The notes below the pieces were generated by a model. It had not been told where the DNA came from and made no database searches. It was given only the letters and a program-made list of their open reading frames with translations. Below, piece by piece: positions 12,066 to 60,930 of a DNA stretch of 64,000 bases. Origin of the DNA: an uncultured Erysipelotrichaceae bacterium (GTDB lineage Bacteria; Bacillota_I; Bacilli_A; RFN20; CAG-826); contig CAMVEL010000007.1 of NCBI GenBank assembly GCA_947166565.1, positions 7,323-71,322 of the forward strand, in the 5' to 3' direction. How positions within the stretch are numbered: the stretch's first letter is position 1; every line of letters starts with the position of its first letter. A program made the translations under genes and the position numbers.

Positions 12066-15212
<3,147 letters not shown>

Positions 15213-15216
<4 letters not shown>

Positions 15217-15431
15217 CTGGTAACCTCGAATCTTTGACCAAGGACCTCGACGATTTCTCCTCCTCGGAGTTTTCTACCCCTACGGTTGTCGAGCTCACCA
15301 TCGATGAGGACTTCGTTCTTTTGAAGGAAGAACTTCGCCTCGGCTCCGTTATCGATTATTGAAACGAATTTGAGGAATTGACCGAGGGTTATGTATTCGG
15401 TCGTGATTTTCACCTTCTTGATTCCGTCCAT
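15213..15431 (-). CDS. yaaA: S4-domain RNA-binding protein YaaA
   Basis: It is 72 aa with an S4 fold (RRGRKL). It sits in the conserved position between dnaN and recF. Confidence 0.85.
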
Positions 15432-15546
15432 AAAAGGCCCTTTCTAAGACACGGATATAGTTTACTACATAGTAGTAAAAAGCGCTAGGGTTTTCCTAAC
15501 GCTTTTTTAACTTTTTTTCTTTGGATTTTTTTAGGCTCGAGAAGGC

Positions 15547-16668
15547 TTAATAAGCATGCATTGGAGTGATTAATTCAATGGCCGAATCATCTTTGGGGTC
15601 TTTGACGACGAAAGGCCTCATTTCGGCTTGGAAGCAAATCGTGACATCCTCGGTTTTTAGAGCTTTGATGGCATCGATGACGAAAAGGGAATTGAAGGTA
15701 ACTTCCAATCTTTCGCCTTCATAGGAGAATGTTTTGATTGGCTCGTTGCCAGATCCATGGCGGTCGCTCTTAACGGAGACTTCGACATGGTCTTCGCTCA
15801 TGGAAAGTTTAACCGCGTATTCCTTATCGGCCGAAAGAACGGCGATACGGCCCATGGCGTTTAGCAATTCTTGGGAATTGACTTGGAGTTTGTAGTTGCA
15901 AACGGTTGGGATAATCGAACGGGTGACTGGATAATCTCCAGGGATAAGCCTTGTAGAAACAACGTTGCCATCGAACATAAAGAGGGCTTTCTTATCCGAG
16001 ATGAAGATCCTCGTTTCCAAGGCACCTTCCATCAAACGGACGATATCTGTGAGAATCCTAGCGGGGATATTCGTGCGGAAGGAAACGTCGCTATCGATCT
16101 TCACTGATTTCCTAGCAAGCCTCGCAGAATCCGTTGCGGTCGCGGTCAAAACACCGTCTTTGGCCTCCAAATTCAAAGCCGTTAAAATGGCCCTTTGTTC
16201 TTTGCCGGAGGCGGCGAAGGCGCTTTGGGAAACCAAATCCGCAAGTACGTTGCAAGGGATGGTGAGTTCGGTTCCGCTCGGTTCTAAGTCGATGTCTGGG
16301 TATTCGTCCGCGGAAGCGCAATTGATTCTGAATAGAGAATGCCCGTCTTCTATTTTCGCGACTGCGTTATCGACGATATCGAGGAAAACCATTTCCCCTT
16401 CCATTCTTCTGACGATTTCGGTCATCATGCGGGCGTCTACCATCGCGGAGCCACGAACCGCATTAGTAATAATCGTGCGGTCGCCTAATATGTAGGGAAC
16501 CGTTGAACGGATCGTTATTTCGTTATTGGATCCAGTAACTTCCATACCGCGTTCAGTTAGATCCAATTTAAAATTCGAAAGGACGGCTACCGGATTCTTT
16601 GGGGCGATAGCGTGGTAGGCGTTTGTTAGCGCCGCGAGGAAACGTTCTTTGTTAATCGTTAGACGCAT
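15547..16668 (-). CDS. dnaN: DNA polymerase III beta sliding clamp
   Basis: Full-length three-domain beta clamp of 373 aa. Confidence 0.95.
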   Translation of the reverse strand: MRLTINKERFLAALTNAYHAIAPKNPVAVLSNFKLDLTERGMEVTGSNNEITIRSTVPYILGDRTIITNAVRGSAMVDARMMTEIVRRMEGEMVFLDIVDNAVAKIEDGHSLFRINCASADEYPDIDLEPSGTELTIPCNVLADLVSQSAFAASGKEQRAILTALNLEAKDGVLTATATDSARLARKSVKIDSDVSFRTNIPARILTDIVRLMEGALETRIFISDKKALFMFDGNVVSTRLIPGDYPVTRSIIPTVCNYKLQVNSQELLNAMGRIAVLSADKEYAVKLSMSEDHVEVSVKSDRHGSGNEPIKTFSYEGERLEVTFNSLFVIDAIKALKTEDVTICFQAEMRPFVVKDPKDDSAIELITPMHAY

Positions 16669-16718
16669 AATTAATTCCTTTCATTCAAATTCTTTTTTCT
16701 TTTAATAGAGTTAAGCGG

Positions 16719-16736
16719 TGTGGATTGTGTGGATAA
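16719..16736. promoter_or_regulatory. Tandem DnaA boxes in the dnaA-dnaN intergenic part of oriC (incC-like). An adjacent AT-rich stretch (16785-16812) is a likely DUE.
   Basis: TGTGGATTG lies at 16719-16727. The perfect consensus TGTGGATAA lies at 16728-16736. Confidence 0.7.
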
Positions 16737-16809
16737 CTCGCCGTTTGGCTGTTCCTTATGATACCACCTTCCGCATTGGATTCATATCCTTTTATTTAAT
16801 AAATAAACC

Positions 16810-18177
16810 TTATTTGGATAATTTGTTTTTTATCTCGTTTATGGCTGTCCCCATATCCGGGTCGTTTTTCAACTCTCTTTCCACTTTCGAGATACCGCTC
16901 AAGACGGTGGAATGATCCTTACCGCCAAATGCTTGACCTATCTTAATCAAGGGTGTTCCGAGCATTTCCCTATCGAGATACATAGCGATATGACGGGCCA
17001 TGGCCACGCGGCTTGTGCGTATCTTGCCGGTGATTTGGGATGGGGTTAATGAATAGTAATTAGCCACTGCAGCAATAATCTTGTTTTCCGTCAATTCATC
17101 CTGGCTTTCGTGAGCTTCTATCAAAGACCTTATAGCTTCCGAAACGACGCTCATGGTGATGTGCTTTGTTGGCTTGATGTTGATCGTGTAGAAGACCAAT
17201 CTCGTTAATGCACCCTCGAGATCCCTTACGTTGGAACAGAACTTCCTAGCGAGGAAGGAAATGACTTCTTCATCGAAGTCCTTTACGTCTAACCCATGCA
17301 TGGGTATCTTCGATTTCAATATGTTCTCACTAGTTTCAAGATCCGGTTTATCAATGCTTAGGACTAAGCCCTGCGAGAACCTCGATTTGAGTCTTTCGTC
17401 AATTCCGTCTAGATTATTTGGATGCTGATCGGAGGTAATGACAACCTGCTTGTTCGCGTTGATCAACGTTTGGAAAGCATCGAAGAACATTTCCATCGTT
17501 TTGGCTTTCTGCTTCAATAGTTGAATATCGTCAATCAAAAACAAATCAACGTCTTTTCTAAAGAAATCCGTGAAGGATTTAACGCCCTTATAACCGGTCG
17601 CGTATTTCACGTATTCGTTGATGAAATCCGAAGTGGAAAGGAAGAGGACCCTGGCTCCCGGGTTTTTCTCTCTAACAGCATTGCCGATCGCTTGCAAAAG
17701 GTGGGTTTTGCCTAAACCTGGGCCAGAGTATAGAAGCAAAGGGTTATAAAGCTGACCCGGCGTGGAAGCGATCATCAAAGACGCTTGATAAGCCTCTCTA
17801 TTCGATGGTCCGACAATAAAATTGTCGAAAGTGAACTGTTTATTTAAATGCGAAGAAGTGAAATATTGAGGAATCGAATCGTCTTTTGCTTCTTGGGTTT
17901 GACTTGAAGAGGAAGAAGCCACGAATTCAGCGTGGAAATCGGTTCCGGTGACATTATGGAGAACCTCGTCGATGGTTTCCGAGAATTTAGATTTCAAAAC
18001 GGCTGCCGCAACGGGAGTTGAAACGTTTACCGTAATAACATTATTATCTACGCGTGTGGCGTCCGTGCCTGCGAAAAAGCTATCGAAAATCCTTTGTTCG
18101 ATTTTGCCTTTTAATTCCTTCAGGGTCAGTTCCCAGATTGCCTTAAGTTCAGAAATGGTTTCATTCATAATATTCAC
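16810..18177 (-). CDS. dnaA: Chromosomal replication initiator DnaA
   Basis: AAA+ Walker A GPGLGKTHL and the C-terminal DNA-binding domain are present. It is 455 aa. Confidence 0.97.
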   Translation of the reverse strand: MNIMNETISELKAIWELTLKELKGKIEQRIFDSFFAGTDATRVDNNVITVNVSTPVAAAVLKSKFSETIDEVLHNVTGTDFHAEFVASSSSSQTQEAKDDSIPQYFTSSHLNKQFTFDNFIVGPSNREAYQASLMIASTPGQLYNPLLLYSGPGLGKTHLLQAIGNAVREKNPGARVLFLSTSDFINEYVKYATGYKGVKSFTDFFRKDVDLFLIDDIQLLKQKAKTMEMFFDAFQTLINANKQVVITSDQHPNNLDGIDERLKSRFSQGLVLSIDKPDLETSENILKSKIPMHGLDVKDFDEEVISFLARKFCSNVRDLEGALTRLVFYTINIKPTKHITMSVVSEAIRSLIEAHESQDELTENKIIAAVANYYSLTPSQITGKIRTSRVAMARHIAMYLDREMLGTPLIKIGQAFGGKDHSTVLSGISKVERELKNDPDMGTAINEIKNKLSK

Positions 18178-18189
18178 CTCCGGTATTTT

Positions 18190-18470
18190 GACATTTCCAC
18201 AATAAAAAGCAACTAAAATTTTAACATCATTGATTTTTCCACAATTTAACTTATATTCGGCAAAAAATGGCCTATTTATGGAGTTTTCAACTTTTCCACA
18301 TTGTGGATTAAATGTGGTAAAAATTACCCATATTCAAACCGTTGTGGAAAACTTATTTTTGCTAGGTGTTGCCAACATAGAAAACAGCTTCTTTTACATG
18401 CTGCAAAACGAAGAAATTAGACATTTCCCACAATTATCAACAAAATGCAATCAACATGGCTGTGGGAACG
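18190..18470. other. oriC: oriC: AT-rich region with at least seven DnaA-box-like 9-mers, mostly TTTTCCACA/TGTGGAAAA variants
   Basis: Boxes lie at 18194-18202, 18235-18243, 18292-18300, 18302-18310, 18343-18351, 18424-18432 and 18461-18469. The region sits between dnaA and rpmH. Confidence 0.8.
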
Positions 18471-18614
18471 CTGTTTCGAAGAGGTTTTTTGGATGGAAAA
18501 CGAGGATAAAAACAATGGGGATATTTTTTGTTAATCTTTCGGATTTCCCATCTCCAAATTCTTTCGATGCCGAAATTGGTGTTTTTTGGTGTTGTTTGCC
18601 CGCGGTCGCGCCCG

Positions 18615-18620
18615 TATAAT
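18615..18620 (+). promoter_or_regulatory. -10 element TATAAT for the rpmH-rnpA operon
   Basis: CCCGTATAAT lies 33 nt upstream of the rpmH ATG. Confidence 0.5.
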
Positions 18621-18652
18621 ATGCAACGCATCTCAGAAAGGAGAGATTAGCC

Positions 18653-18790
18653 ATGGGAAAGAAAACATACCAACCCTCCAAAGTGAAACACGCTCACAAA
18701 GCCGGATTCCGTGCTCGCATGAAAACTCATTCCGGTAGAAAGATCTTGGCCAAACGTCGCGCCAAGGGACGCGTTCGCCTCGCCGCCTAA
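18653..18790 (+). CDS. rpmH: 50S ribosomal protein L34
   Basis: It translates as [45 protein letters not shown] and is preceded by a GGAGAG RBS. It is too short for the ORF track. Confidence 0.95.
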
Positions 18791-18808
18791 GGCGTTTTCC
18801 TTTTGCCT

Positions 18809-19150
18809 ATGAAGCGAGAACTCAGGGTTAGAAAACACCAAGAATTCGATCGCATCATAAAAGGCGGGAAGAAGATCAAATCCCCCCATTTCAGCTTTTA
18901 TTACGTCGAGGCAGACCCTGCCCAAAAACACTCAAGAATCGGATTGGCCGTATCTAAAGCCAACGGGAAAGCCATCAAAAGAACCCGTATAAAAAGACAA
19001 GTACGCGCCATGCTCACTAAGCGAAATGATTATGGGGATCCGATCGATCTCATCATCGTGATTCGCCCTTCCTACTCGGAAGAGGCGTTTCACGGAAACG
19101 AGGCCGAATTGAACGAATGCCTCAACAAAATCAAGGAATTACTACATTGA
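18809..19150 (+). CDS. rnpA: RNase P protein component
   Basis: It begins MKRELRVRKHQEFDRII and is a basic protein. The listed start at 18803 is a TTG, so ATG 18809 is preferred. Confidence 0.9.
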   Translation: MKRELRVRKHQEFDRIIKGGKKIKSPHFSFYYVEADPAQKHSRIGLAVSKANGKAIKRTRIKRQVRAMLTKRNDYGDPIDLIIVIRPSYSEEAFHGNEAELNECLNKIKELLH

Positions 19151-53135: not shown

Positions 53136-53360
53136 ATGGCTTTTAAGAAAATGCGTTCTCGCAAGAAGCAGTGCTATTTCAAAAAGAACCACATCAAGTT
53201 CATCGATTATAAGGATGTCGAAACCCTCAAGAAATTCGTTTCTTCCGATGGCAAGATTACCCCTCGTTCCATCACCGGCACGAGCGCCAAATATCAGCGT
53301 GAACTTGCGGTTGCGATCAAGAACGCCCGTTATATGGGTCTTCTCCCAGTCGTTAAGTAA
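53136..53360 (+). CDS. rpsR: 30S ribosomal protein S18
   Basis: It is 74 aa with the basic stretch [10 protein letters not shown]. Confidence 0.95.
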
Positions 53361-53420
53361 ACTAGCCTGCTTGTCGCAGGACGAACCCGATTCCCCGATT
53401 TAGGACAAAACGGATTCACC

Positions 53421-53470
53421 TCGACGACGAAGCAACAAACCATCAAGACCGTCCCACGTGGGCGGTTTTC
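53421..53470 (+). repeat. Repeat copy A (tail-head junction) with the terminator hairpin CCGTCCCACGTGGGCGG+TTTTC. It probably terminates the rpsF-ssb-rpsR operon.
   Basis: It matches copy C in 45 of 46 positions. Confidence 0.8.
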
Positions 53471-53503
53471 TTATGTTTCTCCTCTTGCTAGTAGTATAAT
53501 TGG

Positions 53504-53620
53504 CTTGGGAATGATGTCTCCCATCTAGAAATAGAGAACCGCAATGAAGTGCTGATGACGTCTATGACTTGTTTTGTCATAGAAATCAGCGCTTTTGTTT
53601 CTATGGCAGATGGGAGGTAT
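53504..53620 (+). promoter_or_regulatory. Candidate fluoride riboswitch (crcB motif), with the aptamer at about 53506-53568 and a translational expression platform
   Basis: The P1 stem is GGGA/UCCC. Its loop GAUGUC can form a pseudoknot with GACGUC, which follows the conserved GCUGAUGAC-UCUAUG. The AACCGC and short P3 segments are present. Downstream, AGAUGGGAGG (the SD) is complementary to CCUCCCAUCU on the 3' side of P1. Confidence 0.55.
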
Positions 53621-53622
53621 CG

Positions 53623-54813
53623 ATGAATATATTTCTGTCTTTGTTTATTATTTTTGGTGGTGGGATCCTCGGTGGGTTTTTATTTGAGAAGATCAAACTC
53701 CCCAAACTGGTGTGGTATATCATTCTCGGGATTCTTATTGGACCATCTTTGTTCAATATCGTTGATGATACGTTGCTGTCGGTTTCGTCTCATCTAAGGC
53801 AAATCGCTTTGGTCATCATATTGACCAGGTCAGGCCTATCTTTGAACATTAAGAACCTAAAGAAAATAGGGCGACCTGCGATATTGATGTGCTTTTTACC
53901 CGCTTGTTTTGAAATTGCGGGCATCACGATATTTGGCCCAATGCTCCTCGGGATATCCTATTTCGAAGCCTTGCTTCTTGGCTCGGTCTTGGCGGCCGTT
54001 TCGCCGGCGGTAGTGGTTCCGAGAATGATTCGCCTAATGGAAGAAGGATATGGAAAAGAACACTGCGTGCCCGAACTTGTGATGGCGGGGGCATCTTGTG
54101 ACGACATCTTTGTAATCGTACTTTTCTATTCGTTCAAGAATCTGATCGCAACGTCCACCTTTGACGCTTGGAGCGTCGGGCAAATCCCCATTTCGATCGT
54201 CTCCGGTGTCATTTTGGGCATCGGAGTAGGCTTCTTGATGGTTTTAGCCATTCGATACATGAAACTAAATAGAATCGTCCATGTCATTTTGATGCTCGGT
54301 CTCTCCTTTGGGATGCTCGCCCTCGAGAATGCCTTGAAACCGTATTTCAGCGTTTCGTCTCTATTAGCCATCATCGTCATGGCATTTGTGGTGGGCGTCT
54401 TTAAAAAAGAGGAAGCGAAGGAGATGCAGAAATCCTATAACGGCTTATGGCAAGGTTTTGAAATCCTATTGTTCGCTCTCGTTGGCATTGCGGTCGATGT
54501 TCGTTACGCTTTTTCAAAAGAAGGGGCAGTCATCGTTGGGCTGGTTTTCATTGCGTTGGTATTTAGAAGTTTAGGCGTGTTTTGCAGCATAATTGCAACG
54601 AAATTCGCTTGGAAAGAAAAACTATATATCGTCGTTTCTTATCTCCCTAAGGCGACCGTTCAAGCATCGATTGGGGCGATTGCTTTGTCCGAAGGCCTTG
54701 CTTGCGGCACGTTGGTGCTGACCGCTGCGGTGGTGGCAATATTGATAACCGCTCCATTGGGTGCGATATTGATGGATAACCTGAAAAACAAATTGCTTAA
54801 GAGGGAGGCGTAG
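53623..54813 (+). CDS. CPA1-family cation/proton antiporter (Na+/H+ exchanger family)
   Basis: It has about 12 TM segments and a Na_H_Exchanger-like fold. The start is set to MNIFLSL, which follows the GGGAGG SD. The listed start at 53569 is an upstream in-frame extension. Confidence 0.75.
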   Translation: MNIFLSLFIIFGGGILGGFLFEKIKLPKLVWYIILGILIGPSLFNIVDDTLLSVSSHLRQIALVIILTRSGLSLNIKNLKKIGRPAILMCFLPACFEIAGITIFGPMLLGISYFEALLLGSVLAAVSPAVVVPRMIRLMEEGYGKEHCVPELVMAGASCDDIFVIVLFYSFKNLIATSTFDAWSVGQIPISIVSGVILGIGVGFLMVLAIRYMKLNRIVHVILMLGLSFGMLALENALKPYFSVSSLLAIIVMAFVVGVFKKEEAKEMQKSYNGLWQGFEILLFALVGIAVDVRYAFSKEGAVIVGLVFIALVFRSLGVFCSIIATKFAWKEKLYIVVSYLPKATVQASIGAIALSEGLACGTLVLTAAVVAILITAPLGAILMDNLKNKLLKREA

Positions 54814-54834
54814 TTCCTTCGACTCTTTTATAGG

Positions 54835-54937
54835 CAAGAAGCAACAAATCAACAGGACCGTCCCACGTGGGGCGGTTTTTTCATGCTCGTCCGCCCCTCG
54901 TCCTGGAGTTTTCAGAAGCCATCGACGTCGAAGCTAC
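54835..54937 (+). repeat. Repeat copy B (full unit: hairpin + CCCTCGTCCTGGA module + CATCGACGTCGAAGC tail)
   Basis: About 75% identical to copy D over roughly 85 bp. The hairpin is GACCGTCCCACGTGGGGCGG+TTTTTT. Confidence 0.75.
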
Positions 54938-54968
54938 TTTATATACTTGTATATAACTCGTTCTGGCT

Positions 54969-54996
54969 AGCCCCGGTCGTCCCACGTCTCACGATC
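54969..54996 (+). repeat. Degenerate additional hairpin-module copy (CGGTCGTCCCACGTCTCACGATCGTCC)
   Basis: It shares the CGTCCCACGT core with copies A, B and C. Confidence 0.4.
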
Positions 54997-55170
54997 GTCC
55001 TTGTGCCGGCAAATTGTTAGGCGTCGTTGGAATCGTGTCACATGGCTCGAATATGGGCTTCGTCGGAGAGAGCGGAGTTTGTTCTTTTTCGGAGAATTGG
55101 CGTCGTCATGGGACAGCTTGTGTGTCAGGACGAGAGCAATTCTCCTCGTTCATACGAAGATCGTTCTCCC

Positions 55171-55220
55171 CGAAACACGAAGCAACAAACCAACAAGACC
55201 GTCCCACGTGGGCGGTTTTC
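55171..55220 (+). repeat. Repeat copy C (tail-head junction), abutting the 3' end of the minus-strand ABC-2 operon
   Basis: CGAAGCAACAAACCAACAAGACCGTCCCACGTGGGCGGTTTTC. Confidence 0.8.
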
Positions 55221-55224
55221 TATT

Positions 55225-56016
55225 TCACGATCCCGTGGACTCGTAACGCCTGGCGCATAACGTCCAGATCAACGTGGCCAAAGCGAAGAAAGCAATCGCT
55301 GCTCCGACAATGATCAAGCTCAACAAGTAGGGGTTGTAACTCCCATAGAGCAAAGTATCGACCGGCAGGGAAATGAATAAGCCAAATGGCAAGATGAAGA
55401 TCAGGATGAAGCGGATCGCCTGGGGGTAGATGGCGATCGGGTATTTCGCGTAGATCGTGAAGTTATAGACGATTTGCAGCAGGGGTCCGCTTTTCTTGAA
55501 GATGAAGGCCAAGGAAGATAAAGCGATCTTGAAGGAAGTGATGATGATCGCCCCGAAGATCGCCCCGATGATCAAGACGAAGATCGCCCCAAAACTGACC
55601 GATGTCTGGAGGTTCAGCCCGCAGATGGTGATCATGGTGACCCCGACGATGATCTCGCCGAAACCATCGGGCTGGAACGTCTCCGCGAACATCTGGAAGA
55701 TCACGGGCACAGGACGCAGGAAGTGCCGGTCCATATCGCCCAATTGGACCCTTCGATAAGCAACCAGCCAGAATTCGTCGCTGAAGAGGTGATCCAAGGC
55801 GATCGGAAGCATCGAAAAACCATAGAAGAAACCGACTTCCGCGGGAGTATATCCCTTCAAAGAAGGGATGGCTTGGAGAATGAAGAAGATGGAACCCAAG
55901 GAGCAGGCATTGGAAATCAAAAAGGAAAGGATTGAGATGATCGAGTCCTTCTTATATTCCAAGCGGGACATCATGCTGCGCTTGATGCAGGTGAGATAAA
56001 GCTTCACGTATCGCAT
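55225..56016 (-). CDS. ABC-2 type transporter permease (COG3694-like)
   Basis: It is a 263-aa protein with 6 TM segments, the last gene of the ATPase-permease-permease operon. Confidence 0.7.
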   Translation of the reverse strand: MRYVKLYLTCIKRSMMSRLEYKKDSIISILSFLISNACSLGSIFFILQAIPSLKGYTPAEVGFFYGFSMLPIALDHLFSDEFWLVAYRRVQLGDMDRHFLRPVPVIFQMFAETFQPDGFGEIIVGVTMITICGLNLQTSVSFGAIFVLIIGAIFGAIIITSFKIALSSLAFIFKKSGPLLQIVYNFTIYAKYPIAIYPQAIRFILIFILPFGLFISLPVDTLLYGSYNPYLLSLIIVGAAIAFFALATLIWTLCARRYESTGS

Positions 56017-56017
56017 C

Positions 56018-56857
56018 TTATCCTCCCTGCACCGTCACGATCTTGATCGCGTGGTTGAATAGCAATTTGCCGATGAGTTCCAATAGGACCCACCATCCGA
56101 AAGAGATGAGGATCACTTTTCCGCATTCGAGGTAATCGTATTTCATCATGAGGATGAGAATCGGGTTCTGGCTCATGCCCGCGAAGGGCATGTAGCTTAC
56201 GATTTCGCGGAAGATATTGGGGAAAAACGCGATCGGAAGCAAGGTGCCGGATAAGAAGGCGATCACCGTCGTCTTGAGCGCGTTTAAACCCCAGGCCGCG
56301 GTGGTGTAGAAGCACAAGATCCCGAAGATATAGGAAATCGCCCCATTCAATAAGCAGGCGAGGACGCTGGCGACGAGGAACAATAGGAAATGGGCGATGA
56401 AATCCCAGATTGAAGCCACGGGAAGATAGCCGATCCCAATGAGTACCCCGAGGCCCGCGGCGTACAAAGGAATCCCAAAGACCAGCGACATCATGAGGAA
56501 CGCTCCAATGTTCGAGGCGATGAATTTCCCGCGGTAGGAAATCGGCTTGATGAGGAAGTTTCCAATCGTCCCTTGCCGGATATCGCGGTTGATGAACCAC
56601 ACGGTATCGTCATTGAACGTCACGAAGCCGAAGATCGTCGTCAATACCACATAAACGATCATCTCTTTGTAGGTGAAGCCGTTGATCGAAGAATCGATCC
56701 CGCCTTCGCTACTTTGATAAACGGCGAGCCAAAGGAAAATGAGACAAGCCACTTCGGCGACGGTGACGATCGCCCAGGTGATGATGTTGAAGCGGTAGGC
56801 CATCACATCGATGGCCGACGCGCGGGCGAATGGCTTATATTTCCTCAGCCTACTCAT
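56018..56857 (-). CDS. ABC-2 type transporter permease (COG4587-like)
   Basis: It has 6 TM segments. The start is set to ATG 56857 (MSRLRKY), 4 nt after the ATPase stop. The listed start at 56878 is a TTG. Confidence 0.7.
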   Translation of the reverse strand: MSRLRKYKPFARASAIDVMAYRFNIITWAIVTVAEVACLIFLWLAVYQSSEGGIDSSINGFTYKEMIVYVVLTTIFGFVTFNDDTVWFINRDIRQGTIGNFLIKPISYRGKFIASNIGAFLMMSLVFGIPLYAAGLGVLIGIGYLPVASIWDFIAHFLLFLVASVLACLLNGAISYIFGILCFYTTAAWGLNALKTTVIAFLSGTLLPIAFFPNIFREIVSYMPFAGMSQNPILILMMKYDYLECGKVILISFGWWVLLELIGKLLFNHAIKIVTVQGG

Positions 56858-57854
56858 GTTCTTCTTCCTGCTGGGCAAGGATCTTCTTCACGACGTCTTC
56901 GATTGAGATGTCCGTGATTTTCATATCGATCGCGTGATATTGGGAGAAAGAGTATTGGATGATGTGCTCGAGCACGACCTTGTCCGCGTCAAATTTGAGC
57001 ATGACCTTATCTTTATGGTCTTCATCCAACTCCATCATGACGTCTTCGGAGAATGGTTTCACTTCATTCGGATCGACGCTCGGGGGGATGGTCAAGGTCA
57101 GGGTCTTGATGTTCCCGAACCGCCGCTTGATATTCCCCAACGGGCCATCATAGATGATCTTCCCTTTCTCGATCATGATGATGCGCGAGCAGAGGTTCTC
57201 AATGTCCGCCATATCATGGGTAGTGAGGACGACGGTGGTGTGGTATTTCGCGTTCAACGCGTGGATCGCCGTGCGGATCTTGTCTTTGACAAGGACATCC
57301 ATGCCGATGGTAGGTTCATCAAGGAAGAGGATCTTCGGGTTATGAAGCATCGATGCCGCCAAATCCGCGCGCATCCTTTGCCCTAAGGAAAGAGTGCGGA
57401 CCGGCTGATTCATGAATTCGTCGACGCCGAGGACGGAGGATAGGAATTGGATCCTTTCCTCATAATCGGAATCCGACACTTGATAAACCTCTTTGAGCAC
57501 TTTGAATGACTCGATCAAGGGGATGTCCCACCATAACTGGCTCTTCTGCCCGAAGACGACCCCGATGTCTTTGGCGACGATCCGGCGCTTCAGATAGGGC
57601 TCTTTGTCGTCGATCAATACCTTTCCGGAGGTGGGGGTGAGGATGCCGCACATCATCTTGATCGTGGTGGATTTCCCCGCGCCATTGGAGCCGATGTAGC
57701 CGACGATCTCGCCTTCCATGATGTCGAAAGAGACGTCATCGACGGCGCGGATCTCCGTGTATTTCCGGGAGAACAAAGTGGCAAGCATCCCAACGAGGCC
57801 TTTGCCCCTTATGGGTTTCCGAAAGATTTTGCTTAGGTTTTGGACTTGGATCAT
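56850..57854 (-). CDS. ABC transporter ATP-binding protein (COG4586-like)
   Basis: Walker A GSNGAGKST, signature LSLGQRMRADLAAS, and Walker B ILFLDEPTIGMD are present. The start is set to MIQVQNLSKIF at 57854. Confidence 0.85.
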   Translation of the reverse strand: MIQVQNLSKIFRKPIRGKGLVGMLATLFSRKYTEIRAVDDVSFDIMEGEIVGYIGSNGAGKSTTIKMMCGILTPTSGKVLIDDKEPYLKRRIVAKDIGVVFGQKSQLWWDIPLIESFKVLKEVYQVSDSDYEERIQFLSSVLGVDEFMNQPVRTLSLGQRMRADLAASMLHNPKILFLDEPTIGMDVLVKDKIRTAIHALNAKYHTTVVLTTHDMADIENLCSRIIMIEKGKIIYDGPLGNIKRRFGNIKTLTLTIPPSVDPNEVKPFSEDVMMELDEDHKDKVMLKFDADKVVLEHIIQYSFSQYHAIDMKITDISIEDVVKKILAQQEEEHE

Positions 57855-57915
57855 GTTGAGAATACCTTTGGTATCGTTCCTTATTGTACCGCAGCGGGCA
57901 AGGCAAAAGAAAGAA

Positions 57916-57999
57916 GCGTCCCTCGTGGACGGTTCTTTCGTCGTCGTGTGTCCCTCGTCCTGGAAATATTGGAAATCATCGACGACGAAGCAACAAACC
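57916..57999 (+). repeat. Repeat copy D (full unit, variant hairpin CGTCCCTCGTGGACGG), lying in the 5' region of the ABC-2 operon
   Basis: GCGTCCCTCGTGGACGGTTCTTTCGTCGTCGTGTGTCCCTCGTCCTGGAAATATTGGAAATCATCGACGACGAAGCAACAAACC. Confidence 0.75.
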
Positions 58000-58122
58000 G
58001 ACATTATTCAGGCGACTACTATGTTTATAAATGTAGAAAGTGTGGCGCAGCCTGGACAAAACATATTAGCTAACCATCACTTTATCGTTTGCTTAAGTTA
58101 AGTCGTCCATAGTGGCGATTCT

Positions 58123-58674
58123 TTATCTATATGATACGGAATACGCTGTTTTTTGTGTTCCGTTAAGCGGCTCGCCTTTATATGTTCCTTTAGCAGTAGC
58201 TTGAAGCAAATAATCAGTAAGGTAGCCATAGTTATTATAGGTTTGGCTTTCAATGGTTCTGATGGTTCTTTCTTCTATTGTTTCTGTATAATCAACATAA
58301 GCTTTAAATGGCTCTATAAAATATTGATATCCAAGATCCTTGCTATCTTCGCTTTCTTCTGCTTTTTTAAATTCATCTTTTATGGTTCTGTTTATTTCAT
58401 CAGTAAGATCATATTCATATTTTTCATCAGGAAGGAATTTGTTTTGTTCATCGTTCCATGAATAATTGAGCGTTGCGTTAATTGTTTGCCCCTCTCCAGA
58501 TAAGTCATCAAAATATGTAATTTTCAGTGTGGCGTGAGAATGATGATTATTCTCTATTTCTTGTATCTTTTGATAAAACTCTGAGTACTCAACCTTTTTT
58601 GGGCTATTGTTATTGTTACACGCCACTAAAGAGAGTGTTGAAATAAAACAAAATACTAAAAATCCCTTTTTCAT
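58123..58674 (-). CDS. Hypothetical lipoprotein (AT-rich gene)
   Basis: The signal peptide is MKKGFLVFCFISTLSLVAC with a lipobox. The mature part is Asn- and Glu-rich. No family was recognised. Confidence 0.6.
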   Translation of the reverse strand: MKKGFLVFCFISTLSLVACNNNNSPKKVEYSEFYQKIQEIENNHHSHATLKITYFDDLSGEGQTINATLNYSWNDEQNKFLPDEKYEYDLTDEINRTIKDEFKKAEESEDSKDLGYQYFIEPFKAYVDYTETIEERTIRTIESQTYNNYGYLTDYLLQATAKGTYKGEPLNGTQKTAYSVSYR

Positions 58675-58830
58675 AAAAATACCCTCAAATCGACATAGAT
58701 ATTTTAACATGGGACACGTAGATCATCTACAAAGTGATTGCGGCAAAAAGTTCCACGAACCTAAATGATAAAAATTGTTGCTAATTTGTTGCAAACTTTG
58801 TGCTAACATACGAATAATAAAGGAATTTTT

Positions 58831-59094
58831 ATGGAAAAAGTTTATAGAGTTGTTATGGTCTATCCGGACGGTCATGTCGAAGATGTCCAGGAAGAATTCA
58901 AAGAAGGCAAGGAAGCTCTTGAGTATGGGAACAATCTTTTGGCCCAGGTCTATAACACCGAAAGCGTATCCCGTCCGTCTACCAGCGGAATCGACGATGG
59001 CTTTGGCTTCAAGGAAAAGATCGAACCGTATTTCATGATCGTTGAAGTTCGCGGAAAAAAGATCCGCATGGTTTACGATAGCCATTTCCGTTAA
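58831..59094 (+). CDS. Small hypothetical protein (87 aa)
   Basis: It has an AAAGGAA RBS, coding-like composition and its own terminator. Confidence 0.5.
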   Translation: MEKVYRVVMVYPDGHVEDVQEEFKEGKEALEYGNNLLAQVYNTESVSRPSTSGIDDGFGFKEKIEPYFMIVEVRGKKIRMVYDSHFR

Positions 59095-59111
59095 TCACCA
59101 AACGCTTTATG

Positions 59112-59136
59112 ACCGCCTTCCGAAGGCGGTTTTTCC
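59112..59136 (+). terminator. Rho-independent terminator
   Basis: Stem CCGCCTTC / GAAGGCGG followed by TTTTT. Confidence 0.8.
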
Positions 59137-59185
59137 TTAAGGGGATGTTATAATTTGTTCTACTGAACAAAAAGAGGCTAGGCAT

Positions 59186-59863
59186 ATGACCGAAATCCAG
59201 GAATACCTCATTAACAACAAAGACGAGGGATATAGGGCCTTTACTTTGCCCTTAATTCCTAATGTCGAGCCATCTTCTTTTATTGGGGTGAGACTCCCCA
59301 TAATCAAGAAATACGTGAAAGAAGTGGGAGGAACCCTCAAAGAAGCCTTTTTAGATGACCTCCCACATCAATATCACGAAGAAAACATCCTTCACGCCTT
59401 TATCCTTTCTAATCTCAAAGATTATGACGAATGCATTAAGCGAATTGACGCTTTCCTTCCTTATGTTTCCAATTGGTCTGTATGCGATGCCATTTGCAAC
59501 AAACATTTGGCGAAACATAAAGATGAATTGTTGAAAGAGATTTACAAATGGCTTAAGAGCAAAGAGGTTTATCGGGTTAGGTATGCGGTTAAGTGCCTCA
59601 TGAATTATTTCCTTGGCGAGGATTTCCGCGAAGAGCATCTTTTAAAAGTCCAAGAGGTTAGGTTGAACGACTATTACGTTCAAACGATGATCGCCTGGTA
59701 TTTAGCTACCGGATTAGCGAAGAATTACGATTCTTTCATCAAGACGATTGAAGAAAAAAGATTCGACCCATGCATTCATAATAAGGCAATTCAGAAGGGC
59801 GTCGAATCCTTCCGCGTGAGCGATGAGCATAAGGCTTATTTAAAGACCTTGAAGATAAAATAG
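59186..59863 (+). CDS. DNA alkylation repair protein (AlkD/AlkC-like HEAT-repeat glycosylase family)
   Basis: It is 225 aa and carries a NWSVCD motif. Confidence 0.65.
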   Translation: MTEIQEYLINNKDEGYRAFTLPLIPNVEPSSFIGVRLPIIKKYVKEVGGTLKEAFLDDLPHQYHEENILHAFILSNLKDYDECIKRIDAFLPYVSNWSVCDAICNKHLAKHKDELLKEIYKWLKSKEVYRVRYAVKCLMNYFLGEDFREEHLLKVQEVRLNDYYVQTMIAWYLATGLAKNYDSFIKTIEEKRFDPCIHNKAIQKGVESFRVSDEHKAYLKTLKIK

Positions 59864-59964
59864 ATTCAACGATTAGGGACGAATGAACAAAGCTTTTGAC
59901 GGAAAAGGTGGTCTTTAGCGTACGTTTATCTATATAATTCATGCGTTGTACTTGGAGGAAACCC

Positions 59965-60930
59965 ATGAAAAAGTATTTAGGTACGATAATCACCGCGCTG
60001 GTCGTCTTGACCTTAAGCGTGCTCGGCTTCGTCTTCTGCCCCCCAAATCTCAATTCCGTTCAGGCGGAGACGCTCATGATTCTTGCAATAGTCTGCGGAG
60101 GTGCCGTGGCTTATTGCTTCATCGTTGGGGAAATCAGCCGTAACAATTCGCAAATGGATAAGCTTTGGAGCATCATGCCAATCGCTTATGCATGGATCGT
60201 CGCCGCCAAAGGAGATATGAGACCACGCCTCGTTATCTTCGCTATCATCGTTACTTTGTGGGGAATCCGTCTAACGATCAACTTTGCCCGCAAAGGCGCC
60301 TACAGCATCAAGTTCTGGGCCGGCGAAGAGGATTACCGTTGGCAGGTATTGCGTAAGAGCAAATACCTTTCCAACAAAGTCGCTTGGGCTTTTTGGGATC
60401 TATTCTTCATTTCCTTCTATCAAAACGTCTTGGTTCTTGCAATCTGCGTGCCAGCCCTCGCCGTTATGAGTTCCGATGCCCAGCTTGGGGCTTGGGACTA
60501 TGTGGCCTTCGCCGCCGCCCTTGGTTTCTTGCTTCTTGAGCTTGCCGCCGATGAGCAGCAGATGGCCTTCCATACCACCAAGAAGAAACTTCTCGCCGAA
60601 GGCAAAAAGCTTGAAGAACTCCCTGAGCCATTTAACAAAGGCTTCAATACCACGGGGTTATGGGGACACGCAAGACACCCCAACTACCTTGGTGAACAAG
60701 GCGTTTGGCTATCTTTGTATTTCATTGTCCTTGGAGCGGGAGCCGCTAACTACGGCGTCTTCAACTGGACGATGATTGGACCGCTCTTCCTAATCTTCCT
60801 TTTCCTTGGAAGTTCCGCCTTTGGCGAAAGCGTCTCCAACGCCAAATACCCCGAATTCCACATCTATATGGAACACGTTTCCAAATATGTTCCTTTATGG
60901 AAATACAATCCTGAAAAATATAAAGAATAA
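59965..60930 (+). CDS. DUF1295 / steroid-5-alpha-reductase-like integral membrane protein
   Basis: An HPNYLGE motif and multiple TM segments are present. The start is set to MKKYLGT. Confidence 0.65.
   Translation: MKKYLGTIITALVVLTLSVLGFVFCPPNLNSVQAETLMILAIVCGGAVAYCFIVGEISRNNSQMDKLWSIMPIAYAWIVAAKGDMRPRLVIFAIIVTLWGIRLTINFARKGAYSIKFWAGEEDYRWQVLRKSKYLSNKVAWAFWDLFFISFYQNVLVLAICVPALAVMSSDAQLGAWDYVAFAAALGFLLLELAADEQQMAFHTTKKKLLAEGKKLEELPEPFNKGFNTTGLWGHARHPNYLGEQGVWLSLYFIVLGAGAANYGVFNWTMIGPLFLIFLFLGSSAFGESVSNAKYPEFHIYMEHVSKYVPLWKYNPEKYKE

What the first reader, a model, noticed from the sequence alone, without database searches (positions are those of the whole stretch)
53421..57999. Local family of 85-100 bp hairpin-bearing repeats bracketing two transporter cassettes of different GC content
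Four copies of a modular repeat occur within 4.6 kb, plus degenerate fragments in the 410-bp gap between 54814 and 55224. The modules are a hairpin built on the palindromic core CCCACGTGGG followed by a T-run, a CCCTCGTCCTGGA module, and a CATCGACGACGAAGCAACAAACC tail. Copies A (53421-53470) and C (55171-55220) are 45 of 46 identical. Together they flank the riboswitch and CPA1 antiporter gene. Copies C and D (57916-57999) flank the GC-rich ABC-2 trio on the opposite strand. The layout looks like repeat-mediated insertion or duplication of cassettes, with the repeat doubling as a terminator. It could also be a REP/BIME-like element family specific to this lineage.
Basis: seen in the sequence. 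Interest (0 to 1): 0.6.

Follow-up and report, generated by a model that had tools for sequence, protein, structure and literature searches.

The report
Hairpin-bounded gene cassette array after rpsR
The repeats are real: they are copies of the terminator hairpin of the ribosomal protein S18 gene, plus pieces of a ~365-bp palindromic spacer, and they mark the borders of swappable gene cassettes that have recently moved between distantly related uncultured rumen bacteria.

Summary
Observation confirmed. All four copies lie at the stated coordinates, far above chance, and nowhere else in the 64 kb.

R and L are ~60-nt imperfect inverted repeats. hp is homologous to the native rpsR terminator of a sister clade that lacks R, M2 and L.

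About 90 related loci show a hypervariable cassette array between rpsR and a conserved distal flank.
- The ABC-2 trio is ~98% identical in at least 8 different contexts.
- CPA1 is 94–98.7% identical in genomes whose SSB is only 40–63% identical.
- Ends of shared blocks pile up at hp about 40-fold over expectation.
- Empty and occupied sites differ by exactly "cassette + one hp".
- An outgroup species has an invariant locus.

No recombinase is linked to any array. The most likely mechanism is recombination at the repeated hairpin/E copies, used as portable homology. An unlinked site-specific recombinase, or Tn7/MIC-like transposition of R…L units, cannot be excluded. A genome-wide REP/BIME family is not supported.

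The parts
53136..53360 (+). rpsR (ribosomal protein S18), last gene of rpsF-ssb-rpsR. It is the proximal anchor of the array.
   Evidence: Pfam Ribosomal_S18, E 2e-25. R modules start 7 or 10-13 nt after its stop codon in about 17 species.
53372..53444 (+). R module, A-type variant (TGTCGCAGGACGAAC...CGACGACGAAGCAACAAACC).
   Evidence: nhmmer match of 53364-53472 to the right half of the unit, E 3.8e-11. Aligned with other R copies.
53445..53471 (+). hpA: hairpin AAGACCGTCC-CACGT-GGGCGGTTTT plus T-run. It is the terminator of the rpsR operon and the left border of the CPA1 cassette.
   Evidence: Terminator scan finds 10 pairs and a loop of 5. RNA fold gives -13.2 kcal/mol for the hairpin. Blocks shared with relatives end at 53444.
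53498..53571 (+). Fluoride riboswitch aptamer, which travels with the CPA1 gene as one cassette.
   Evidence: Rfam RF01734, 37.5 bits against a gathering score of 34. The same riboswitch plus gene is found in L016, L023, L024, L028, L034, L053 and L058.
53623..54813 (+). CPA1-type Na+/H+ exchanger gene (cassette 1 cargo).
   Evidence: Pfam Na_H_Exchanger, E 9.5e-44. The protein is 94-98.7% identical in genomes whose SSB is 40-63% identical.
54836..54880 (+). CA-rich tail plus hpB (copy B). It is the terminator of CPA1, the right border of cassette 1 and the start of element E.
   Evidence: Family D1 at 82%. Fold -17.2 kcal/mol, z -2.9. Block ends fall at 54873/54879.
54881..54999 (+). M2 module. 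It holds CCCTCGTCCTGGA (54895-54907, the complement of the start of R), CATCGACGTCGAAGC, and the perfect palindrome TTATATAC-TT-GTATATAA (promoter-like).
   Evidence: Conserved in more than 30 loci, always in the order hp-M2-L. Sequences.
55000..55117 (+). L module. It always ends ...GTCGTCATGGGACA and is an imperfect inverted repeat of R.
   Evidence: nhmmer hits in most loci. Inverted repeat I2. Self-match of the unit on the opposite strand.
55118..55194 (+). R module, canonical type. It starts TGTGTCAGGACGAG after a 5-nt spacer GCTTG and ends with the tail CACGAAGCAACAAACCAACAA.
   Evidence: With L it folds into a ~130-nt rod: -80.7 kcal/mol and z -3.9 on the + strand, against -65.4 on the - strand.
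55195..55221 (+). hpC (copy C), the left border of the ABC-2 cassette. The right arm GGGCGGTTTTCT always travels with the cassette.
   Evidence: Junctions in L001-L010. Block ends at 55209-55219. The - strand fold is poor, z about 0.
55225..57854 (-). ABC-2 trio: permeases at 55225-56016 and 56018-56860, ATPase at 56850-57854. This is cassette 2 cargo, of foreign composition.
   Evidence: Pfam ABC2_membrane_6 twice and ABC_tran. GC3 0.74-0.75 against ~0.5. About 98% nt identity in at least 8 different contexts.
57909..57939 (.). hpD (copy D), a hairpin stable on both strands and the right border of the ABC-2 cassette. The left arm GAAGCGTCCCTCGT travels with the cassette.
   Evidence: Fold -17.8 kcal/mol on + and -15.8 on -. 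Junctions. Block ends at 57918-57934.
57940..58003 (+). A truncated M2 start (TTTCGTCGTCG...CCCTCGTCCTGGA at 57952-57964) fused to the 3' end of an R module (CATCGACGACGAAGCAACAAACCGACA). This is the distal end of the array.
   Evidence: Family D3. In L053-L055 a full R abuts the same distal flank...AACAAACCGACA|TTATTCAGG.
58004..60930 (.). Conserved distal flank: an AT-rich 195-aa gene, a 120-aa gene, DNA_alkylation and DUF1295.
   Evidence: 94-96% nt identity to L053-L055, although the cassettes in between are different. Pfam.

Best explanation
The four repeats are boundary elements of a hypervariable gene-cassette array that starts at the terminator of the rpsF-ssb-rpsR operon.

Anatomy:
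- The core piece is that terminator itself, here called hp: a CA-rich tail, a GACCGTCC/GGGCGG hairpin and a T-run.
- In this clade hp is embedded in a ~365-nt palindromic element E, in the order R-hp-M2-L.
- Each cassette is a self-contained transcription unit with its own promoter, sometimes a riboswitch, its gene(s) and a terminator. Each sits between two co-oriented hp copies.
- The window reads: rpsR-R-hpA-[fluoride riboswitch + CPA1]-hpB-M2-L-R-hpC-[ABC-2 trio, inverted]-hpD-(M2/R remnant)-distal flank.

Shown: cassettes are gained, lost, swapped and passed between genera, and the breakpoints fall at hp and at other module borders.

Inferred mechanism: the repeated hp/E copies act as portable homology.
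- Recombination between two flanking copies deletes or circularises a cassette together with one repeat.
- Incoming DNA then integrates at any resident copy. A circle does so by one Campbell-type crossover; a linear fragment does so by two crossovers or by homology-facilitated illegitimate joining.
- These steps use host recombination functions, not a cassette-encoded enzyme.

On the + strand hp also terminates transcription of the upstream unit.
For: Anatomy:
- Repeats and modules are documented.
- hp is homologous to the native rpsR terminator of a sister clade without R, M2 or L: TCTCTAACAAAAACTAAGCCGTCC-AATAA-GGGCGGCTTTTTTG.

Cassette exchange:
- The ABC-2 trio is 96-99% identical in L001-L010, with at least 8 different left or right contexts. 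Homology always changes inside hp.
- CPA1 is 94-98.7% identical at protein level where SSB is 40-63% and RpsF 62-74% identical. Same-genus strains with 99% SSB have only 94% CPA1.
- ABC-2 GC3 is 0.75 against ~0.5 for housekeeping genes.
- Strains with identical RpsR carry different arrays.
- The outgroup locus is invariant in 10 of 10 places.

Breakpoints:
- 87 of 287 internal ends of blocks (at least 90% identical and at least 400 nt long) lie within 15 nt of an hp centre. Only 0.7% of the sequence is that close.

Empty against occupied sites:
- L068 and L070 differ by exactly [MNT/HepT cassette + a second hp].
- L077 has an insert followed by a duplicated ~110 nt of rpsR plus hp.
- The flanking direct repeats vary in length: ~35 nt, ~150 nt, and 45-365 nt in the E clade. 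That is what crossovers in whatever homology the incoming DNA carried would give.
- L002 looks like a simple hpB x hpC deletion.

No recombinase:
- None is found in the window ORFs tested.
- None is found in about 90 related loci, apart from stray IS elements.

Terminator role: and the group II introns directly behind hp.
Against: - Outside the E clade, and in L001, L005, L006 and L008, the only shared sequence is ~25-40 nt. That is short for RecA-dependent recombination, yet the same borders recur.
- Breakpoints sit at module edges (hp, the L|R junction, the M2|L border, the centre of the M2 palindrome) rather than spread through the modules. This is more like defined sites.
- R and L look like transposon ends (TGT...ACA). 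Their spacer is most often 5 nt, and there are some 5-bp flank duplications.
- The hp arms are nearly invariant, so a crossover cannot be placed more finely than ~23 nt. The data therefore cannot separate homologous from site-specific exchange.
- No whole genome was available, so an unlinked recombinase cannot be ruled out.
- Termination itself is not measured.
Confidence: 0.5

Rival explanations
1. An integron-like system. An unlinked, trans-acting site-specific recombinase recognises the hairpin, or the folded L-R-hp palindrome (an attC analogue). It excises cassettes as circles and inserts them at the rpsR terminator, which serves as the attI/attB analogue.
For: - The array is made of co-oriented cassettes, each with a 3' imperfect palindrome of ~130-190 nt.
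- Cargo is typical of chromosomal integrons: MNT/HepT, HipAB, DUF4160/DUF2442, GNAT, RhuM.
- Some cassettes start within ~14 nt of the hp T-run with no room for a promoter, for example the 169-aa NTP_transf cassette in L034, L001 and L025.
- Borders are sharp at hp in 8 contexts.
- Occupied sites equal empty sites plus cassette plus one hp.
- Transfer occurs across genera with only ~25-40 nt in common.
- hp has the 10-5-10 geometry of a tyrosine-recombinase core site.
- The fold is asymmetric between strands, as for attC.
Against: - No integrase lies next to any array. None is found in the window ORFs tested or in ~90 loci.
- There is no GTTRRRY/RYYYAAC core.
- Many cassettes carry their own promoter or riboswitch, and one is inverted.
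- hp loops differ between partners.
- Flanking duplications vary in length, ~35 to ~150 nt.
- The L-R rod shows almost no covariation: 1 of 45 pairs, with a positive covariation term.
Confidence: 0.22
2. R...L units are non-autonomous transposons: a MITE when empty, a 'mobile insertion cassette' when loaded. They would belong to a Tn7/Mu-like family with an attachment site a fixed distance downstream of rpsR. Arrays would arise from successive insertions at that site, with hp as an internal terminator next to the R end.
For: - R always begins TGTG/TGTC.. and L always ends ..GGGACA. The ends match at 19 of 25 positions as inverted repeats (my own by-eye alignment of the two ends read), and each end carries repeated ACGARRNNNNTTCTCC-type motifs.
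- R starts 7 or 10-13 nt after the rpsR stop codon in about 17 species.
- Units lie in one orientation, in tandem.
- The L|R spacer is 5 nt in 12 of 22 R1 junctions.
- The 5 nt before the first R equal the L|R spacer in the window/L054 (GCTTG) and in L047 (GCTAA).
- Single elements are flanked by GGGGC/GGGGC (L012) and TTATA/TTATA (L052).
- The CPA1 unit occurs as R-hp-CPA1-L(44 nt) in L011, L033, L034 and L053.
- Inserts in the sister clade also start TGTTG.AGG.
Against: - No autonomous copy was found: no TnsA/B/C, TniQ, or rve-type gene bounded by R and L. The only transposases are unrelated stray IS3, IS4 and InsA-like genes.
- Spacers range from 1 to 8 nt, and several single elements have no duplication (L019, L018, L043).
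- The model does not explain hp-to-hp cassettes that lack R and L, such as ABC-2 in L001 and L070.
- The TTATA case is also explained by an extension of the palindrome.
Confidence: 0.18
3. A lineage-specific REP/BIME-like structural or regulatory repeat: an mRNA-stabilising 3' rod plus terminator, or a ~250-nt small RNA transcribed from the M2 palindrome. It would only happen to lie between variable genes and would play no part in their mobility.
For: - The elements are a modular mosaic of palindromic units and linker motifs at gene 3' ends, like BIMEs.
- The + strand rod is stable, -80.7 kcal/mol with z -3.9, and G·U pairs favour the + strand.
- M2 carries a promoter-like palindrome, and L is always followed by an R-type arm plus a terminator (R1, R2 or R3).
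- R-hp also occurs behind an ftsZ-like gene in L017.
Against: - The window has no copy outside the 4.6-kb array, and the exact-hairpin scan found only 19 stretches in 17 MAGs.
- Breakpoints of horizontally exchanged blocks are enriched ~40-fold at hp.
- There is no Rfam family and no covariation.
- E is 85-96% identical between species whose housekeeping genes are ~66-75% identical at DNA level. It therefore moves with the cassettes.
Confidence: 0.06
4. Cassettes are made or moved through group IIC introns and reverse transcription. Introns home behind terminator hairpins, and recombination or RT copying between intron copies joins genes to hairpins, as was proposed for the origin of integron cassettes.
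For: - ORF-less group II introns are inserted about 8 nt behind hp in L058, L061, L062 (two copies) and L064. Rfam gives group-II-D1D4-3 at 93 bits and Intron_gpII at 52 bits.
Against: - The introns occur in only one species group.
- There is none in the window or in most arrays.
- Cassettes include their promoters, which an RNA intermediate would not carry.
- No reverse transcriptase gene was seen.
Confidence: 0.04

Closest known systems
Chromosomal integron cassette arrays (attC/VCR repeats) and CALINs (attC clusters lacking an integrase)
   Same: - Co-oriented array of small accessory cassettes, rich in toxin-antitoxin and acetyltransferase genes.
- Each cassette is followed by an imperfect palindrome of ~130-190 nt that is similar within an array.
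- Cassettes differ between strains and are shared between species.
- The cassette border lies at the 3' foot of the palindrome.
   Different: - No IntI next to the array.
- No R''/L''/L'/R' boxes and no GTTRRRY core.
- Many cassettes have their own promoter, riboswitch and terminator.
- The platform is the terminator of a ribosomal protein operon 35 kb from oriC.
- The host is a Bacilli lineage, a group in which integrons are, to my knowledge, essentially unknown.
REP/BIME (bacterial interspersed mosaic elements) of enterobacteria
   Same: - Mosaic of short palindromic units and linker motifs in alternating orientation.
- Extragenic, at gene 3' ends, with a possible terminator or mRNA-stabiliser role.
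- Known recombination hot spots and targets of mobile elements.
   Different: - BIMEs are dispersed in hundreds of copies per genome and are associated with RAYT transposases.
- Here the copies are confined to one locus and coincide with cassette borders.
Tn7-like elements at attTn7-type sites, and mobile insertion cassettes (MIC231) / MITEs
   Same: - TGT...ACA ends with repeated internal motifs.
- Orientation-specific position a fixed short distance downstream of a conserved essential gene.
- Tandem accretion into an island of accessory and defence cargo.
- Units without a transposase.
   Different: - No autonomous element or TnsABC/TniQ genes were found.
- The 5-bp duplication is inconsistent.
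- Cassette borders at hp are not explained.
pdif modules (XerC/D-site-bounded modules on Acinetobacter plasmids)
   Same: - Gene modules without their own recombinase, bounded by short partially palindromic sites.
- The same module is found in many contexts.
- A host-encoded recombinase is presumed.
   Different: - pdif sites are 28-bp 11-6-11 Xer sites in alternating orientation.
- Here the sites are GC-rich terminator hairpins, all co-oriented, with no resemblance to Firmicute dif.
Integration of SaPI4-family islands at the 3' end of rpsR in staphylococci (PMC8407400), and tandem cargo arrays such as tycheposons
   Same: - The same target gene end (rpsR) acts as a hub for islands.
- Partial duplication of the rpsR 3' end is seen in L016 and L077.
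- Arrays of cargo are flanked by att-like repeats.
   Different: - Those elements carry a tyrosine integrase and a 15-bp core.
- Here there is no integrase, and the repeat is the terminator hairpin or E, not the coding end.
Minimal mobile elements of Neisseria / repeat-anchored homologous exchange after transformation
   Same: - Alternative cassettes at one chromosomal site, exchanged by homologous recombination in conserved flanks.
- No element-encoded enzyme.
   Different: - Here the anchors are short repeated intergenic elements inside the array, not the flanking conserved genes.
- Exchange spans genera whose flanking genes are too diverged to serve as anchors.

Membership tests
Integron / CALIN | Tyrosine integrase IntI adjacent to the array (integron) or at least in the genome (CALIN) | tested here: not met
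   No Phage_integrase hit among 43 window ORFs scanned. None in the Pfam lists or scans of ~90 related loci. The rest of the genome could not be examined.
Integron / CALIN | attC sites with R''(RYYYAAC)-L''...L'-R'(GTTRRRY) boxes | tested here: not met
   By reading, the hairpin foot is ..AAGACCG/CGGTTTTCT and the tail is GAAGCAACAAACC. Neither fits the core or inverse core consensus. No attC covariance model was available.
Integron / CALIN | Array of co-oriented cassettes, each ending in an imperfect palindromic site | tested here: met
   L016, L034, L024, L058, L053 and the window.
Integron / CALIN | Mostly promoterless cassettes expressed from a platform promoter | tested here: inconclusive
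   CPA1, MNT/HepT, GG-peptide and aa-ABC cassettes carry their own promoters or riboswitches. The 169-aa NTP_transf cassette starts ~14 nt after hp with no visible promoter.
REP/BIME | Mosaic of short palindromic units plus linker motifs in extragenic 3' regions | tested here: met
   The hp, hp-like, R, M2 and L grammar.
REP/BIME | Dispersed through the genome in tens to hundreds of copies | tested here: not met
   There are 4 hp copies in 64 kb, all within 4.6 kb. The exact-hairpin scan found 19 stretches in 17 MAGs, about 16 of them in rpsR arrays. A whole-genome count for this organism was not possible.
REP/BIME | Cognate RAYT (Y1 HUH) transposase | not tested
   No Y1_Tnp hit appeared in any scan, but genomes were not searched.
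MITE / MIC / Tn7-like | Terminal inverted repeats | tested here: met
   TGTGTCAGGACGAGAGCAATTCTCC against the complement of GGAGAATTGGCGTCGTCATGGGACA matches at 19 of 25 positions (my own by-eye alignment of the two ends read; inverted repeat I2 gives 76% over 25 nt). The ends are sharply bounded in all copies.
MITE / MIC / Tn7-like | Target-site duplication of fixed length | tested here: inconclusive
   Five-bp matches occur in L012 and L052, and in the window/L054 and L047 as spacers. There is none in L019, L018 or L043, and spacers range from 1 to 8 nt.
MITE / MIC / Tn7-like | Autonomous relative encoding the transposase between the same ends | tested here: not met
   None in ~90 loci. The IS3, IS4 and InsA-like genes present have other ends.
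pdif / Xer modules | 28-bp XerC-6 bp-XerD sites, alternately oriented around each module | tested here: not met
   All hp copies are co-oriented. The hp sequence is unlike the Bacillus dif consensus, which I compared from memory.
Intrinsic (Rho-independent) terminator | GC-rich stem-loop followed by a U-run directly downstream of a transcription unit | tested here: met
   hp is homologous to the rpsR terminator in the sister clade. Terminator-homing group II introns sit behind it.
Intrinsic (Rho-independent) terminator | Measured termination | not testable with these tools
   Needs Term-seq, 3' end mapping or a reporter assay.
Fluoride riboswitch (RF01734) | Covariance-model score at or above the curated cut-off, upstream of a fluoride-related transporter | tested here: met
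   37.5 bits against 34 at 53498-53571, 52 nt upstream of the Na_H_Exchanger gene.

The most novel reading that the evidence does not exclude
The rumen Bacilli that carry these arrays have an integron analogue. This would be a cassette-capture platform whose attachment site is the terminator hairpin of the rpsF-ssb-rpsR operon, and whose cassette sites are the hp / L-R-hp palindromes. It would be served by a recombinase or transposase encoded elsewhere in the genome and belonging to no family currently linked to cassette arrays. It would explain the exchange of riboswitch-controlled transporters, toxin-antitoxin pairs and bacteriocin-like peptides across genera.
Probability: 0.2. Interest if true: 0.85.

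Novelty: new variant of a known kind. Interest (0 to 1): 0.6.

Why it matters
It shows a previously undescribed route of gene flow in abundant but uncultured rumen and gut Bacilli. Complete, self-regulated transcription units are exchanged between genera at one origin-proximal site. Examples are a fluoride riboswitch with its antiporter, a lysine riboswitch with an amino-acid ABC transporter, ABC-2 exporters, toxin-antitoxin pairs and double-glycine leader peptides. The borders of these units are copies of a ribosomal-operon terminator.

If the exchange is purely homology-driven, a terminator and a small palindromic element can act as a portable recombination anchor, giving an integron-like outcome without an integrase. 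If a dedicated enzyme exists, it would be a new cassette system in a phylum where integrons are essentially absent.

In practical terms, the locus breaks metagenome assemblies, since several contigs end right after rpsR. It is also a ready marker for strain-level variation.

Tried and rejected
- **Known RNA family for the repeat.** Rfam at the gathering score and at E up to 10 over 53300-55300 gave only the fluoride riboswitch.
- **Selection on the L-R rod structure.** RNAalifold on 13 copies found 1 of 45 pairs with a compensatory change and a positive covariation term. This gives no support and does not refute either, because the copies are too similar.
- **Copies on plasmids, phages or viral contigs.** No match in PLSDB or INPHARED in distant mode, and no exact match in IMG/VR for two patterns.
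- **A linked recombinase.**
  - Pfam scans covered 43 window ORFs and about 50 ORFs from related loci, plus the precomputed Pfam lists of 5 context look-ups.
  - These found only a stray IS3 (L039, with a fragment in L030), an IS4 (L060) and an InsA-like zinc ribbon (L032/L042).
  - Recurrent ~400-aa ORFs without Pfam hits are unrelated to each other and look like lipoproteins or membrane proteins.
- **A small protein encoded in E.** The reading frames are not conserved between copies, and start codons and indels vary (reading).
- **M2 palindrome as a dif site.** It resembles only the first ~10 nt of the Bacillus dif XerC arm, compared from memory. The locus is 35 kb from dnaA/oriC, not at the terminus.
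- **Literature.** No paper was found on such arrays. rpsR is known as an integration hub for SaPI4-type islands in staphylococci.
- **First CPA1 look-up.** The look-up of encoding contigs with the 396-aa CPA1 protein found nothing on record.

Full report
**1.

The four copies lie at 53421-53471 (A), 54836-54937 (B), 55171-55221 (C) and 57914-57999 (D).
- A and C are 98% identical over 45 nt. B and D share a 68-nt stretch at 75%.
- The hairpin core occurs five times in the window at up to 3 mismatches, all at these sites. Shuffles expect 0.07.
- The tail occurs 8 times against 1.9 expected.
- CCCTCGTCCTGGA occurs twice, which alone is not significant.
- A profile search with the 225-nt unit finds nothing else in the 64 kb.

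The flanked genes are as described.
- A fluoride riboswitch (RF01734, 37.5 bits against 34) sits upstream of a Na_H_Exchanger gene.
- Two ABC2_membrane_6 permeases and an ABC ATPase lie on the opposite strand.
- The composition differs: GC3 is 0.54 for CPA1, 0.74-0.75 for the ABC-2 genes and ~0.5 for lysS, ssb and dnaA.

**2. What the repeat really is**

Comparison with related DNA came from three kinds of search:
- context look-ups with window proteins;
- one exact-pattern scan each of species genomes and of metagenomes;
- look-ups with RpsR homologues.

- hp is GACCGTCC-loop-GGGCGG followed by a T-run.
- M2 starts TTCGTCGTCG..CCCTCGTCCTGGA (the complement of the start of R). It contains CATCGACGTCGAAGC and the perfect palindrome TTATATAC-TT-GTATATAA.
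- L ends GGAGAATTGGCGTCGTCATGGGACA and is an imperfect inverted repeat of R.

In species with an 'empty' locus the order is rpsR-R-hp-M2-L-unique DNA (L019, L012, L018).

The window reads: rpsR-R-hpA-[riboswitch + CPA1]-hpB-M2-L-R-hpC-[ABC-2 trio]-hpD-(M2 start fused to an R tail)-distal flank. The 410-bp 'gap with degenerate fragments' is therefore one intact element.

The L-R-hp stretch folds into a long rod plus terminator. Its energy is -80.7 kcal/mol (z -3.9) on the + strand and -65.4 on the - strand. hpC does not form well on the - strand, because its G·U pairs become C·A mismatches there.

Thirteen copies show almost no covariation, 1 of 45 pairs. Selection for structure is therefore neither shown nor excluded. 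Rfam has no family for the element.

**3. The hairpin is the rpsR terminator**

A sister clade (RpsR 74% identical) has no R, M2 or L. Its rpsR is followed by TCTCTAACAAAAACTAAGCCGTCC-AATAA-GGGCGGCTTTTTTG. This is clearly the same CA-rich tail plus hairpin plus T-run.

ORF-less group II introns are inserted about 8 nt behind hp in L058, L061, L062 and L064. Rfam scores are 93 bits for D1-D4 and 52 bits for domains V-VI. From established knowledge, bacterial class C introns home behind terminator stem-loops. This is independent support that hp behaves as one.

**4. The repeats delimit mobile cassettes**

The ABC-2 permease, with an identical 263-aa sequence, is on record on 22 contigs that were read. 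The trio is 96-99% identical to the window in L001-L010, but its flanks differ in at least 8 ways:
- another species' rpsR, 72.6% nt identity, with SSB 52% (L004);
- the 3' end of CPA1 with copy B fused to copy C (L002);
- unrelated genes (L001, L005, L006, L008);
- M2 on the other side (L006-L008).

In every case the right arm of hpC and the left arm of hpD stay with the cassette, and the last difference from the window lies in the hairpin loop or outer arm.

CPA1 is 94-98.7% identical at protein level in genomes whose SSB is 40-63% and RpsF 62-74% identical. Same-genus strains (SSB 99%) have only 94%.

Strains with the same RpsR carry different arrays.
- L053-L055 share with the window the CPA1 cassette and the distal flank: 58 kb onward, 94-96% identical.
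- Between these they hold a lysine-riboswitch amino-acid ABC transporter, a 396-aa gene, a hexapeptide acetyltransferase and a GG-leader peptide, instead of the ABC-2 trio.

Across all loci, 87 of 287 internal ends of shared blocks (at least 90% identical, at least 400 nt) lie within 15 nt of an hp centre. Only 0.7% of the sequence is that close. Further clusters fall at the L|R junction and the M2|L border.

The cleanest empty/occupied pairs are in the sister clade.
- L068 and L070 differ by exactly an MNT/HepT cassette plus a second hp, inserted after the T-run.
- L077 has a 402-aa membrane-protein gene followed by a duplicate of the last ~110 nt of rpsR plus hp.

An outgroup species shows the same rpsR-gdpP-rplI-dnaB locus in 10 of 10 places, with no array.

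Cargo includes:
- toxin-antitoxin pairs: MNT/HepT, HipAB, DUF4160/DUF2442, PhdYeFM;
- GNAT acetyltransferases, RhuM, ORF6N, and TIR-domain and Cas4-like proteins;
- GG-leader peptides and transporters.

**5. How it most likely works**

Shown: hp and E copies are the borders of units that are gained, lost and exchanged across genera. No recombinase travels with them.

Inferred: the copies serve as portable homology. Several points argue for this.
- The flanking direct repeats vary in length: ~35 nt in L070, ~150 nt in L077, and 45-365 nt in the E clade. Campbell-type or double crossovers in whatever homology the incoming DNA carries would produce exactly this.
- L002 looks like a plain hpB x hpC deletion.
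- E is 85-96% identical between species whose housekeeping genes are ~66-75% identical at DNA level. It therefore offers 100-365 bp of good homology.

I put this at about 0.5. Three things hold me back.
- In several contexts the only shared sequence is 25-40 nt.
- Breakpoints sit at module edges rather than inside modules.
- R and L have the look of transposon ends: TGT...ACA, repeated internal motifs, a fixed 7-13-nt distance from the rpsR stop, a spacer that is most often 5 nt, and a few 5-bp flank duplications.

Because the hp arms are nearly invariant, crossovers cannot be placed more finely than ~23 nt. Homologous and site-specific exchange therefore cannot be told apart with these data.

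The rivals are:
- an unlinked site-specific recombinase, an integron analogue (0.22);
- Tn7/MIC-like transposition of R...L units (0.18);
- a purely structural or regulatory repeat (0.06);
- intron/RT-mediated cassette formation (0.04).

**6. Comparison with known systems**

The array works like a chromosomal integron or CALIN, but fails the defining tests: there is no IntI and no attC core boxes, and many cassettes have their own promoters.

It is built like a BIME, but is not dispersed.

Its R...L units resemble Tn7-like or MIC elements, but no autonomous partner or consistent duplication was found.

It is unlike pdif modules in site sequence and orientation.

rpsR as an island hub is known from SaPI4-type elements, but those carry an integrase.

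I file it as a new variant of a known kind: a repeat-bounded cassette hot spot. It is not a member of any of these families.

**7. Context**

The window contains dnaA, dnaN, recF and the gyrase genes. The array therefore lies about 35 kb from oriC, co-oriented with replication and with the highly expressed rpsF operon.

The organism is an uncultured rumen/gut member of the Bacilli. Related MAGs are labelled Bacilli, Erysipelotrichaceae, Mollicutes or Ca. Enteromonas.

**8. Verdict**

- The cassette interpretation is supported, and the terminator role is plausible.
- The genome-wide REP/BIME reading is not supported.
- The mechanism is unresolved between homology-driven and enzyme-directed exchange.
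- Interest is 0.6. If a dedicated enzyme exists (about 0.2), the system would deserve about 0.85.

Noticed in passing
window 14143-19116: recF (14143-15216), dnaN (15547-16668) and dnaA (16810-18177) lie on the minus strand, followed by a ~940-nt gap before the next + strand gene. This is probably oriC. The cassette array therefore lies ~35 kb from the replication origin.
   Followed up: partly
L058 11747-12350; also L061 10670-11268, L062 10670-11261 and 11446-11928, L064 10670-11148: ORF-less group II introns (Rfam group-II-D1D4-3 at 93 bits, Intron_gpII at 52 bits) are inserted about 8 nt after the hp T-run, between hp and M2. This fits terminator-homing class C introns. No reverse transcriptase was seen nearby.
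   Followed up: partly
L053 12002-12179 and L034 6810-6987: A lysine riboswitch (RF00168, 65-67 bits) heads an amino-acid ABC transporter cassette (SBP_bac_3/BPD_transp_1/ABC_tran). This cassette occupies the place of the ABC-2 trio in same-genus strains. Cassettes carry their own riboswitches.
   Followed up: partly
L024 2016-2303; L016 ~530-830 (minus strand); L053 17432-17731; L033 and L031 96-aa ORFs: Small cassettes encode ~96-aa peptides with a double-glycine type leader (…LxDEQLEAVSGG) and a Cys-rich C-terminus, which look bacteriocin/RiPP-like. In the sister clade the gene right after rpsR is a C39-family peptidase (L068 10288-10959).
   Followed up: no
window 58123-58710 (minus strand): A very AT-rich 195-aa gene (GC 0.32, GC3 0.255, no Pfam hit, lipoprotein-like N-terminus) sits just beyond the array. 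It is conserved at 94-96% nt in L053-L055, although its composition looks foreign.
   Followed up: partly
L016 ~250-300 and L077 2250-2360: Partial duplicates of the rpsR 3' end lie inside arrays: the last ~17 codons in L016 and ~36 codons in L077. These are att-like duplications of the kind left by elements that integrate into gene 3' ends.
   Followed up: partly
L018, L023, L028, L029, L031, L034, L040, L045, L053 (after L); L028, L029, L048, L051, L053, L060: L is followed by at least two other arm-plus-terminator types besides R-hp. R2 is TGTTCTCAGGCTCTCGTCC…CAACGGCAAACGCAAACACATCA + GGCGTCTCGAAAGAGGCGTCTTTT. R3 is TGTTGTTGGACA / TGTAGTCGTCCAAAG… plus its own hairpin. All start with TGT.
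   Followed up: partly
L021, L023, L028, L029 (upstream of R): A further conserved ~100-nt stretch (…GGAGGATGCGAATCCTTGCCCCAAGCGGGATATGTGAGCCTATCG…) precedes some R modules. It has no Rfam match at the gathering score, and its nature is unknown.
   Followed up: no
L017 267-371: An R-hp pair lies directly downstream of an ftsZ-like gene (N-terminal motif GVGGAGNNAVNRM, my reading). The R-hp module is therefore not strictly confined to the rpsR locus.
   Followed up: no
L064, L065, L066 and other contigs: Several metagenome contigs end within a few hundred bases after rpsR. This suggests that the repeat-rich, strain-variable array routinely breaks short-read assemblies.
   Followed up: no
window 2580-2665 (minus strand) and 59111-59133: A bacterial small SRP RNA (RF00169, 51.8 bits) lies at 2580-2665. 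A separate terminator hairpin, GACCGCCTTCCGAAGGCGGTTTT, lies between the 120-aa gene and DNA_alkylation. It shares the outer stem of hp, but not the tail or loop.
   Followed up: no
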